A stretch of 64,000 bases of DNA from an uncultured archaeon (lineage in GTDB: Archaea; Asgardarchaeota; Lokiarchaeia; Sigyniarchaeales; SOKP01), in NCBI GenBank assembly GCA_964486045.1, contig CAZALK010000011.1, positions 64,001-128,000 of the forward strand. Direction: 5' to 3'. Position 1 is the stretch's first letter. Every line of letters begins with the position of its first letter. The notes below the pieces were generated by a model. The model was not told where the DNA came from and made no database searches. It saw only the letters and a list, made by a program, of their open reading frames with translations. This document shows positions 29,023 to 29,646 of the stretch, one piece after another. The translations under genes and the position numbers were made by a program.

Positions 29023-29165
29023 AGAAAAATTTTATTAAAAGTTTTAAAGTCTTAATATTACTAGTCATATTTAAAATTTAACAATTGTTTTCATACGGAA
29101 ATTTCACCGTGAGATAAAAACGAATACACATAAAGAAAAAAAAAATAAATTGTAGTTAATAATTA

Positions 29166-29434
29166 TTATCTTTCCAATTGGAAGTTGACTTGAACTCTCA
29201 CTCTATTCACAAGCTACACGAAAAGTGTCTCTTTATATATGAGCTTGTCAACATCCTCTTTAACTTTAACGTCCGATTCAATTATCTGAATATTTCTAAT
29301 TCCACGTAAAGTTTTTTTAGCTTCTTCATATGCGTTTTTAGTTGAATAAAACATGAGTATTTTTATCCTTTAACCGCATCTGCCCAATTTTTTTCACTAG
29401 TTGATACTAATTGAATTGACTTATAAACTGGCAT
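29166..29434 (-). CDS. Dodecin (flavin-binding protein), split into three exons: 29434-29370, 29337-29235, 29204-29166
   Basis: Joined exons (65+103+39=207 nt) give MPVYKSIQLVSTSEKNWADAVKNAYEEAKKTLRGIRNIQIIESDVKVKEDVDKLIYRVRVQVNFQLER*, fitting the dodecin pattern VYK.I.LV..S...W.DA..NA...A.KTLR.I...YRV....F.LE. Confidence 0.88.
29205..29234 (-). other. Putative BHB-type intron 2 (30 nt) in dodecin
   Basis: GCTC-ATAT-AT^A-AAG..ACAC-loop-GTGT..CTT-GTGA-AT^A-GAGT; contains an in-frame TAG. Confidence 0.75.
29338..29369 (-). other. Putative BHB/BHL-type intron 1 (32 nt) in dodecin
   Basis: GGTT-AA^A-GGATAAAA-loop-TTTTATTC-AACT-AA^A; shifts frame and contains an in-frame TAA. Confidence 0.8.
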
Positions 29435-29646
29435 TCTAGATCACTTTTTTTTTAATATTTTTGGATGTTAATATGTTTTTTTGTAAGATAATTTGTTATA
29501 GGGTACTATTTAAATATTTCTTAGAAAACTCATAATCCTAAAAATTTATAATGAGAAAATATAATCTCATTGATATTATCTTAAATCTAGAAAAAATCAA
29601 AAAAAAAATTGAAAAGTGAATATAATTGTTATCAATAATTCAATGA

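What the first reader, a model, noticed from the sequence alone, without database searches (positions are those of the whole stretch)
29166..29434. Protein-coding gene (dodecin) with two tRNA-type BHB introns: candidate mRNA splicing in an Asgard archaeon
Seen: a region with no ORF in the track encodes three colinear pieces of a dodecin separated by 32-nt and 30-nt inserts. The exons have no other stop or frameshift and keep an ATG preceded by a GTGA RBS. Both inserts are hairpins bounded by a 4-nt helix and bulges. Established: the archaeal splicing endonuclease EndA cuts after the 2nd nt of each 3-nt bulge of a BHB and RtcB ligates the exons; the well-supported archaeal mRNA example is the single intron in crenarchaeal cbf5. 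Applying that cut rule at both sites gives exactly 207 nt, a 68-aa full-length dodecin. Inference: this is a multi-exon archaeal gene that needs EndA splicing, since unspliced RNA stops after 23 codons. That would allow splicing-level control of flavin storage and suggests similar genes are being missed or miscalled as pseudogenes in these genomes.
Basis: partly seen in the sequence, partly recalled or inferred. Interest (0 to 1): 0.95.

Follow-up and report, generated by a model that had tools for sequence, protein, structure and literature searches.

The report
Two mini-introns split Asgard dodecin
A tiny flavin-binding protein gene of a Loki-type Asgard archaeon is broken by two ~30-base hairpin inserts shaped like tRNA introns; related genomes show the broken gene stays under strong selection and that such inserts sit at seven different places in it, so the message is almost certainly cut and re-joined by the tRNA-splicing enzymes, though no RNA data were available to show this.

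Summary
On the minus strand (29434-29166) three colinear pieces are separated by a 32-nt and a 30-nt insert. Joined, they give a 207-nt ORF, a full-length dodecin (Pfam E 3e-17) and the genome's only copy.

- **Orthologues:** at the same thiolase-dodecin-TPR locus, 34 same-genus genomes carry an uninterrupted orthologue (85-94% identical). Ten carry 30-34-nt inserts. With one further MAG, that makes seven insert sites in a 68-codon gene.
- **Shape:** every site fits one plan: a 4-bp helix between exon and intron 3' end, cuts 2 nt downstream on both strands, an inner hairpin, and mostly A-rich bulges. The chance rate is 0.046 per site.
- **Selection:** interrupted copies evolve under strong purifying selection (dN/dS about 0.03-0.06). 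One differs from an intact gene by 36 synonymous and no amino-acid changes.
- **Enzymes and other genes:** the genome encodes a two-subunit EndA and RtcB. A motif-free comparison found about 10 similar inserts elsewhere, including aEF-2 and single-copy uS10.

Best reading: EndA/RtcB-spliced mini-introns of the relaxed HBh' type. No RNA data exist for this organism, so splicing is inferred. The suggested regulatory role is untested. This scan has noted similar mini-introns on other Asgard DNA.

The parts
29439..29444 (-). Shine-Dalgarno-like GTGATC, 4 nt upstream of the ATG
   Evidence: Read from the sequence. AAGTGA(A/T) is conserved upstream of the ATG in the orthologue alignment. The match to the 16S 3' end is from general knowledge, not tested.
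29370..29434 (-). Exon 1 (65 nt; codons 1-21 plus 2 nt of codon 22), ATG at 29434-29432
   Evidence: tblastn to orthologues covers residues 1-22.
29372..29375 (-). H_a of intron 1: exon nucleotides GGTT, pairing with intron AACT (29340-29343)
   Evidence: Compensatory GGTC/GACT in G013.
29338..29369 (-). Intron 1 (32 nt, canonical register). It consists of the last bulge nt A, an inner hairpin at 29344-29368 (8 bp, 9-nt loop), H_b AACT at 29340-29343, and the first two nt of the 3' bulge (AA). It carries an in-frame TAA for the exon-1 frame.
   Evidence: The same site and a related sequence occur in G013 and G049.
29236..29337 (-). Exon 2 (102 nt; last nt of codon 22 through 2 nt of codon 56)
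29238..29241 (-). H_a of intron 2: exon nucleotides CATA, pairing with intron TGTG (29208-29211; one G-U pair)
29206..29235 (-). Intron 2 (30 nt, canonical register). The inner segment 29212-29234 folds as 2 bp + a 2x2 internal loop + a 4-bp hairpin. H_b TGTG is at 29208-29211. It carries an in-frame TAG.
   Evidence: It was seen only in this genome among those searched, and in near-identical metagenome contigs.
29166..29205 (-). Exon 3 (40 nt; last nt of codon 56 to TAA stop at 29168-29166)
29136..29145 (-). T10 run 20 nt downstream of the stop, a likely archaeal oligo-T terminator
   Evidence: A T-run at the same place is conserved in all orthologues. The terminator function is inferred.

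Best explanation
The dodecin gene is a three-exon gene whose transcript carries two archaeal mini-introns of the bulge-helix-bulge class.

Each intron supplies almost the whole motif itself. It has a 23-25-nt hairpin (h') and then four nucleotides (H_b). These pair with the four exon nucleotides that lie 2 nt upstream of the 5' junction (H_a). This forms the 4-bp central helix. The splicing endonuclease would cut 2 nt 3' of that helix on each strand.

Here the endonuclease is a two-subunit alpha-beta enzyme, encoded on contigs C7 and C10. RtcB (C1) would then join the exons to give a 207-nt ORF for a 68-aa dodecin.

Shown here:
- the anatomy of the inserts;
- exact frame restoration;
- comparative presence/absence of inserts;
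- covariation in the helices;
- purifying selection on interrupted copies;
- presence of the enzyme genes.

Inferred: that cleavage and ligation happen on the RNA, and that EndA and RtcB are the enzymes.
For: 1. **The spliced product is a dodecin.** It is a full-length dodecin and the only dodecin found in a 99%-complete genome.
2. **Orthologues at one locus.** The thiolase-dodecin-TPR locus is conserved in all 36 loci fetched with enough flank to test. In the genus, 34 genomes have the uninterrupted 204-nt gene. Ten have 30-34-nt inserts at six sites, and one more MAG has a seventh site. After removal, every copy reads as an intact 68-aa protein.
3. **One geometry fits all.** In all 13 instances one of the equivalent registers places a 4-bp helix exactly 2 nt upstream of both cuts (12 of 13 with 4/4 pairs), with an end-to-end inner hairpin. 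Random 30-34-nt deletions in this genome reach that in 4.6% of cases. That gives roughly 1e-9 for seven sites if they are independent. Sliding the 3' strand by 1-6 nt makes the true geometry strictly best in 10 of 12 dodecin instances.
4. **Compensatory changes.** At site C, GGTT/AACT becomes GGTC/GACT. At site D, hairpin pairs switch from A-T to G-C.
5. **Selection while interrupted.** G000 vs G013: dN 0.039, dS 1.18. G000 vs G049: 0.059 / 1.05. G048 vs G061: 0.035 / 0.68. Interrupted G061 differs from an intact metagenomic gene by 36 nt and 0 aa.
6. **Enzymes.** There are two EndA paralogues. The C7 copy is closest to the A. pernix catalytic chain 3p1z_B. The C10 copy has Asp in place of the catalytic His. 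RtcB is also present. Asgard (alpha-beta)2 EndA with the L1 loop is reported to have broad specificity (PMC5829648).
7. **Same class of insert in other genes.** A motif-free comparison with 1.2 Mb of G006 found 29-32-nt inserts in aEF-2 (P-loop), single-copy uS10, a CO-dehydrogenase subunit (two inserts), a nucleoside/AMP phosphorylase-family gene, an AAA ATPase, a Roadblock/LC7 gene and a Ras-family GTPase.
8. **Not an artefact.** The inserts are present in DNA contigs from several samples.
Against: - No RNA data are available, so splicing itself has not been observed.
- The outer exon-exon helix h is weak or displaced in both introns. In intron 1 the 3' bulge is effectively 6 nt before ATGC/GCAT pairs.
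- Intron 2 has a 5-nt 5' bulge if its 2-bp h' is used, and one slid control scored as well as the true geometry.
- Intron 2 has no homologue in other genomes, so it has no covariation support.
- The G013 copy begins with ATA instead of ATG, so at least one interrupted copy may be decaying.
- A genome-wide structure-plus-ORF scan gave no significant excess over decoys. It was uninformative rather than contrary.
- The MAG has 7.8% estimated contamination.
Confidence: 0.8

Rival explanations
1. The inserts are removed from the RNA, but not by EndA/RtcB. Another endonuclease/ligase pair or an unknown RNA-guided activity recognises the hairpin.
For: The outer helix of the canonical motif is missing, and intron 2 is relaxed. 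No enzyme assay is available.
Against: The cut positions needed to restore the frame coincide in 13 of 13 instances with the EndA rule of 2 nt 3' of a 4-bp helix on both strands. EndA alpha/beta and RtcB are encoded. HBh' motifs are known substrates of heterotetrameric EndA (PMC5829648).
Confidence: 0.08
2. The gene is a pseudogene, a dead dodecin disrupted by two small insertions.
For: The unspliced frame stops after 23 codons. The G013 copy has ATA at the start. No expression data exist.
Against: - There are no other lesions in any of the 11 interrupted copies.
- dN/dS is 0.03-0.06 between copies that share an insert, at dS of about 1.
- One interrupted copy differs from an intact gene by 36 synonymous and 0 non-synonymous changes.
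- It is the only dodecin in the genome.
- The same kind of insert sits in single-copy uS10 and in aEF-2.
Confidence: 0.05
3. Ribosomes bypass the inserts during translation, as in the phage T4 gene 60 hop.
For: Several inserts are flanked by short direct repeats (AAA...AAA at site C; a 7-nt repeat at site D). A hop between matching codons would therefore give the same protein.
Against: Site B in G004 and the aEF-2 insert each have a single possible register, with no matching take-off and landing codons, and the junction lies inside a codon. At site F the in-frame codons would be TAT and AAT. Seven sites all sharing one 4-bp-helix geometry are not expected for bypassing.
Confidence: 0.03
4. The inserts are cut out at the DNA level, or they are assembly artefacts.
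For: None was found.
Against: Contigs from the source run and from other samples carry the inserts, and no joined form appeared in the DNA runs laid. Independent assemblies of 11 genomes carry inserts of this class.
Confidence: 0.02

Closest known systems
cbf5 pre-mRNA intron of Crenarchaeota (Watanabe 2002; Yoshinari 2006; Yokobori 2009; summarised in PMC10485636)
   Same: A small intron inside an archaeal protein-coding sequence with a relaxed BHB motif. It occurs in lineages with a heterotetrameric (alpha-beta)2 EndA, and intron presence/absence varies among relatives.
   Different: The gene is different. There are two introns in one 207-nt gene and seven positions across relatives. The compact plan here has the intron supplying everything but 4 exon nucleotides. 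The host is a Loki-type Asgard archaeon, and many other genes of the same genome are affected. Splicing of cbf5 is shown experimentally; splicing here is not.
HVO_1309 mRNA of Haloferax volcanii, cleaved by the alpha'2 EndA (PMC10485636; the source study appears to be PMC7714728, listed, which I did not read)
   Same: A non-tRNA, non-rRNA EndA substrate in an mRNA whose spliced form is the major product.
   Different: It is a euryarchaeon with a homodimeric enzyme and a single case in that genome. It is not a polymorphic family of coding-sequence introns.
Multiple non-canonical tRNA introns of Thermoproteales and Asgard archaea (bioRxiv 10.64898/2026.10.13.758758)
   Same: Short BHB introns gained repeatedly at many positions, tolerated where the exon allows the motif. 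This genome's tRNA set is also heavily interrupted: Aragorn recognises only 31 tRNAs, 20 of them with introns.
   Different: The hosts here are protein-coding genes. That preprint does not treat mRNAs.
IRE1/RtcB unconventional splicing of XBP1/HAC1 mRNA in eukaryotes (own knowledge; RtcB role mentioned in PMC8718801 abstract)
   Same: A protein endonuclease plus RtcB-type ligation removes a tiny intron from an mRNA, outside the spliceosome, and changes the reading frame.
   Different: The endonuclease (IRE1) and its recognition motif differ. That pathway is regulated by stress, and no regulation is shown here.

Membership tests
Archaeal BHB (EndA-dependent) intron | 4-bp central helix with one cut 2 nt 3' of it on each strand (symmetric cuts in two 3-nt bulges) | tested here: met
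   Intron 1: GGTT/AACT with AA^A on both strands. Intron 2: CATA/TGTG with TA^T and AA^T. These cuts remove exactly 32 and 30 nt and restore the frame. The same holds at all 13 instances of 7 sites. The null rate is 0.046 per site.
Archaeal BHB (EndA-dependent) intron | Inner helix h' (intron-intron) adjoining the 5' bulge | tested here: met
   Intron 1 has 8 contiguous bp. Intron 2 has 1 bp directly, or 2 bp + an internal loop + 4 bp if the bulge is 5 nt.
Archaeal BHB (EndA-dependent) intron | Outer helix h (exon-exon) adjoining the 3' bulge (strict hBHBh') | tested here: not met
   Intron 1 has 0 contiguous bp; ATGC/GCAT pairs only after 3 extra nt. Intron 2 has 2 bp. The motif is therefore of the relaxed HBh' type, a known substrate class of (alpha-beta)2 EndA (PMC5829648).
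Archaeal BHB (EndA-dependent) intron | Cognate machinery encoded: EndA and RtcB | tested here: met
   PF01974 hits on C7 (102 bits) and C10 (67 bits). The C7 copy is closest to A. pernix alpha chain 3p1z_B. The C10 copy has Asp at the catalytic His position. RtcB is on C1 (557 bits).
Archaeal BHB (EndA-dependent) intron | Cleavage and exon ligation observed on RNA | not testable with these tools
   No RNA run was listed for this DNA. The exact spliced protein is not in the 15-billion-protein collection.
Dodecin (Pfam PF07311) | Full-length match to the family profile above the curated threshold | tested here: met
   63 bits against a cut-off of 22.5, covering profile positions 1-64 of 64, for the spliced product only. 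The unspliced genome gives no hit.
Dodecin (Pfam PF07311) | Flavin binding and dodecamer assembly | not tested
   No structure prediction or assay was run.
Pseudogene | Neutral evolution of the coding sequence and accumulation of other lesions | tested here: not met
   dN/dS is 0.03-0.06 among interrupted copies, and no other frameshift or stop is present.
Programmed translational bypass (T4 gene 60 type) | Matching take-off and landing codons flanking the gap | tested here: not met
   Site B in G004 and the aEF-2 insert have no repeat at their borders. Site F would need TAT to land on AAT.

The most novel reading that the evidence does not exclude
Loki-type Asgard archaea carry a turning-over population of about 30-nt self-contained BHB mini-introns in roughly 1% of their protein-coding genes. 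These include essential single-copy genes such as uS10 and aEF-2.

The introns need only four complementary exon nucleotides, so they can settle almost anywhere in a coding sequence. They are gained and precisely lost on short time scales: seven positions in one 68-codon gene, with sister genomes differing.

EndA/RtcB would then act as a general mRNA-splicing system in the closest prokaryotic relatives of eukaryotes. Current gene calls for these genomes would systematically break or truncate such genes.
Probability: 0.55. Interest if true: 0.9.

Novelty: new variant of a known kind. Interest (0 to 1): 0.8.

Why it matters
- **State of the literature.** Endonuclease-spliced introns inside archaeal coding sequences are documented for essentially two genes: cbf5 in some Crenarchaeota and HVO_1309 in Haloferax. 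A 2023 review expected that more remain to be found (PMC10485636).
- **What is added here.** A single 68-codon gene has two such introns in one genome and seven intron positions across close relatives. The gene is under purifying selection throughout, and the same genome has similar introns in ribosomal protein uS10 and elongation factor 2.
- **What follows if RNA work confirms it.** Multi-exon protein genes and intron gain and loss would be a regular feature of the archaeal lineage closest to eukaryotes. The dodecin locus would offer a compact natural series of intron-plus and intron-minus alleles for studying how such introns arrive and leave.
- **Practical consequence.** Gene callers split, truncate or drop these genes. 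Here no ORF was called at all, and Pfam finds no dodecin in the raw genome. Metabolic reconstructions and completeness estimates of Asgard MAGs are affected.

Tried and rejected
- **RNA evidence:** no RNA holder was listed for the 3-kb stretch or for the gene alone. Nothing follows from that.
- **Exact look-up of spliced proteins:** of seven spliced products, only the G061 product is in the collection, and it comes from intact genes of another species on DNA contigs. This gives no RNA-derived evidence for G000.
- **Genome-wide scan of G000:** I combined canonical geometry (H 4/4, h' of 3 or more, length 26-39) with an ORF-merging test. It gave 2199 hits against 2097-2153 in four slid-geometry decoys, with no length class standing out. 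The scan cannot discriminate in this AT-rich genome, so I dropped it in favour of the motif-free comparison with G006.
- **blastn-short of six dodecin introns against G000:** no significant similarity elsewhere. They are not copies of a repeated mobile element.
- **Aragorn intron calls for tRNAs:** too unreliable here to compare tRNA and mRNA introns in detail. Only one clean 30-nt case (a tRNA-Leu) fitted the geometry.
- **Split-protein idea:** intron 1 holds an ATG in frame with exon 2. The ATG is GTG in G049 and ACG in G013, and exon 3 has no start, so I rejected it.
- **TAG read as pyrrolysine in insert 2:** rejected as a general explanation, because other inserts carry TAA or shift the frame.
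- **Literature searches for mRNA BHB introns in Asgard or Lokiarchaeota:** no report was found in the library searched.

Full report
**What is in the window.**
The gene lies on the minus strand.
- It starts at ATG 29434, preceded by GTGATC at 29444-29439. Read unspliced, the frame runs 23 codons and stops.
- Three colinear pieces separated by a 32-nt and a 30-nt insert join into a 207-nt ORF.
- The 68-aa product matches Pfam Dodecin over the whole profile (63 bits, E 3.2e-17).
- The raw genome (5.18 Mb, 45 contigs, 99% complete, 7.8% contamination) gives no dodecin hit. A search with the spliced protein finds only these pieces. This is therefore the only copy found.
- A T10 run follows the stop.
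- Titles of related loci place the organism in Promethearchaeota/Promethearchaeia, the Loki-type Asgard archaea, from marine sediment.

**The inserts are real DNA.**
- Logan contigs of the probable source run cover both inserts without a difference.
- A contig of a second sample spans the whole stretch.
- Contigs from two other studies cover insert 2 or insert 1.
- One contig of a relative runs straight from exon 3 into exon 2 without insert 2.

**Comparative evidence.**
- In 54 genomes of the genus, 46 have the gene.
- 34 carry an uninterrupted 204-nt coding sequence whose product is 85-94% identical to the spliced product. Two are cut by contig ends. Ten are interrupted.
- All 36 loci fetched with enough flank to test sit between the same thiolase and TPR genes.

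| Site | Position | Insert length | Genomes |
|---|---|---|---|
| A | codon ~12 | 31 nt | G047 |
| B | codons 15/16 | 30 nt | G004, G048 |
| C | codon 22 | 32 nt | G000, G013, G049 |
| D | codon ~45 | 31 nt | G061, G043, G048 |
| E | codon ~52 | 30 or 34 nt | G016, G046 |
| F | codon 56 | 30 nt | G000 only |
| G | codon 57/58 | 30 nt | one further MAG |

- G048, like G000, has two inserts.
- After removal, every copy reads as an intact 68-aa dodecin.

**One structural plan.**
- For each instance I listed all registers that give the same spliced sequence. I then asked whether any register puts a 4-bp helix (exon nt -6 to -3 with intron nt -6 to -3) exactly 2 nt upstream of both cuts. That is the geometry of the BHB central helix with cuts after the second bulge nucleotide.
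- All 13 instances have such a register, 12 with 4/4 pairs.
- Between the 5' bulge and H_b lies a 23-27-nt segment that folds as a hairpin closing at or within 2 nt of its ends.
- The bulges are mostly AA^A.
- For G000, intron 1 is 29369-29338: H GGTT/AACT and an 8-bp h'. Intron 2 is 29235-29206: H CATA/TGTG, with h' of 2 bp + internal loop + 4 bp.
- Random 30-34-nt deletions in this genome have an equivalent register with a 4/4 helix in 4.6% of trials. Seven independent sites all meeting it is of the order of 1e-9.
- When the 3' strand is slid by 1-6 nt, the true geometry scores strictly best in 10 of 12 dodecin instances.
- The outer exon-exon helix is weak (0-2 contiguous pairs in G000). 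These are therefore relaxed HBh' motifs. Site G is a full hBHBh' with 5 outer pairs.

**Covariation.**
- At site C, G013 has exon GGTC (a synonymous change) matched by intron GACT, where G000 and G049 have GGTT/AACT.
- A G-U pair in h' of G000 is A-U in the others.
- At site D, G043 keeps the hairpin with G-C pairs where G061 and G048 have A-U pairs. Its H changes on one side at two pairs without losing pairing.

**Selection.**
- Copies sharing intron C give dN/dS of 0.039/1.18 (G000-G013) and 0.059/1.05 (G000-G049).
- Copies sharing intron D give 0.035/0.68.
- Means are 0.050 for interrupted-interrupted pairs and 0.037 for intact-intact pairs.
- The spliced product of G061 is letter-for-letter identical to a protein encoded by intact genes on three metagenomic contigs of another species. 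The two coding sequences differ at 35-36 of 207 nt.
- Pseudogenes would not behave so.
- One caveat: the G013 copy has ATA in place of the start codon.

**History.**
- On a tree of the neighbouring thiolase, the three intron-C genomes lie in one well-supported 13-genome clade. They are not each other's sisters. G049's near-identical sister G019 lacks the intron.
- Intron D occurs in one sister pair and in a distant genome. Intron E occurs in two different clades.
- In the dodecin coding sequence itself, the three intron-C alleles are mutual nearest neighbours.
- This pattern needs repeated gain, precise loss, or movement of intron-bearing alleles by recombination. A single-gene tree cannot decide which.

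**Machinery.**
- G000 encodes two ~200-aa EndA-domain proteins.
- The C7 protein aligns best to the catalytic alpha chain of the Aeropyrum pernix heterotetramer (3p1z_B, E 1e-33) and keeps the His.
- The C10 protein aligns best to M. jannaschii EndA but has Asp at the catalytic His position.
- This fits the (alpha-beta)2 type that the literature assigns to Asgard archaea and links to relaxed substrates and to cbf5 splicing (PMC5829648; PMC10485636).
- RtcB is present.
- Aragorn recognises only 31 tRNAs, 20 with introns, in this near-complete genome. This fits a heavily interrupted tRNA set, as described for other Asgard classes.

**Not only dodecin.**
I compared ORFs of 1.2 Mb of the complete relative G006 with G000 without using any structure. 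About ten further inserts of 29-32 nt (one of 38) interrupt well-conserved G000 genes.

| Gene in G000 | Location | Insert | Note |
|---|---|---|---|
| aEF-2 | C13:92018 | 30 nt | Between AH and IDHGKTT; 87% identical to G006; the only close homologue in G000 (next best hit 33% identical) |
| Ribosomal protein uS10 | C9:148816 | 31 nt | Only locus in G000 |
| CO-dehydrogenase-family subunit | C22 | 30 and 32 nt | Two inserts |
| Nucleoside/AMP-phosphorylase-family gene | C7:186752 | 30 nt | |
| AAA ATPase | C3:187692 | 32 nt | |
| Roadblock/LC7 gene | C23:7094 | 31 nt | |
| Ras-family GTPase | C1:29536 | 30 nt | |
| Small zinc-ribbon-like protein | C21:17232 | 30 nt | Unnamed ORF; the label rests on a CxxC pair only and Pfam found nothing |

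- Five of eleven candidates have a 4/4 central helix at the canonical place. Three more have 3/4 with a long h'.
- G006 itself showed fewer such inserts in the same 1.2 Mb.

**Rivals.**
- A pseudogene is contradicted by selection and by the absence of any other lesion.
- Ribosomal bypassing would give the same protein at sites with flanking repeats. It fails where the junction has a single register inside a codon (site B in G004; aEF-2).
- DNA-level excision or an assembly artefact has no support.
- Removal by an unknown enzyme cannot be excluded without an assay, but the cut geometry is that of EndA.

**Literature.**
- In the library searched, mRNA BHB introns are reported for cbf5 and HVO_1309 only.
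- A 2026 preprint on Asgard introns treats tRNA genes only.
- No paper on coding-sequence BHB introns in Asgard archaea turned up.
- Earlier notes of this scan describe the same kind of mini-intron in other genes of this genome and in other Asgard genomes. Some have follow-up reports of RNA-derived contigs lacking the intron. I did not check those RNA claims. I did independently re-find the uS10 and phosphorylase cases.

**Verdict.**
The core interpretation is supported by strong indirect evidence.
- Direct RNA proof and any regulatory role remain open.

Noticed in passing
G000 contig C13:92018 (+), outside the window: The aEF-2 orthologue (87% identical to G006) carries a 30-nt insert with three in-frame stops between AH and IDHGKTT of the P-loop. 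It has a GCGC/GCGT helix at the canonical place.
   Followed up: partly
G000 contig C9:148816 (+), outside the window: The only uS10 gene of the genome is split by a 31-nt frame-shifting insert.
   Followed up: partly
G000 contig C22:24777 and C22:24582 (-): A CO-dehydrogenase-family (Prismane) subunit gene, 84-88% identical to G006, carries two inserts of 30 and 32 nt. Each has a long inner hairpin and a 3/4 central helix.
   Followed up: partly
G000 whole genome: Aragorn finds only 31 tRNA genes, 20 with introns and several with implausible calls, in a 99%-complete genome. Most tRNA genes are probably interrupted at non-canonical positions.
   Followed up: partly
window 29344-29368 (-), intron 1: Intron 1 contains an ATG in frame with exon 2, giving the 46-aa ORF 29214-29354. 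The codon is GTG in G049 and ACG in G013, so it is probably incidental.
   Followed up: yes
L019 (G013), start of the dodecin gene: This intron-C copy has ATA where all others have ATG, GTG or TTG. This could be early decay, an assembly error or an unusual start.
   Followed up: no
window 29204-29258, run X2: A related strain from a second sample has many substitutions and small indels (net +3 nt) around intron 2 and the end of exon 2. Intron 1 shows no listed difference. The sequence could not be retrieved to see whether its intron 2 keeps the motif.
   Followed up: no
L042 (G049) versus L013 (G019): The neighbouring thiolase genes are near-identical sisters, but the dodecin alleles are not nearest neighbours and only G049 has intron C. 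This suggests allele replacement by recombination or very recent intron loss.
   Followed up: partly
G006 (CP070831.1) about 337485 and 691068: Two copies of a small Cys-containing gene in G006 each carry the same 30-nt insert relative to the G000 orthologue. Mini-introns therefore also occur in this complete genome, though fewer were seen.
   Followed up: no
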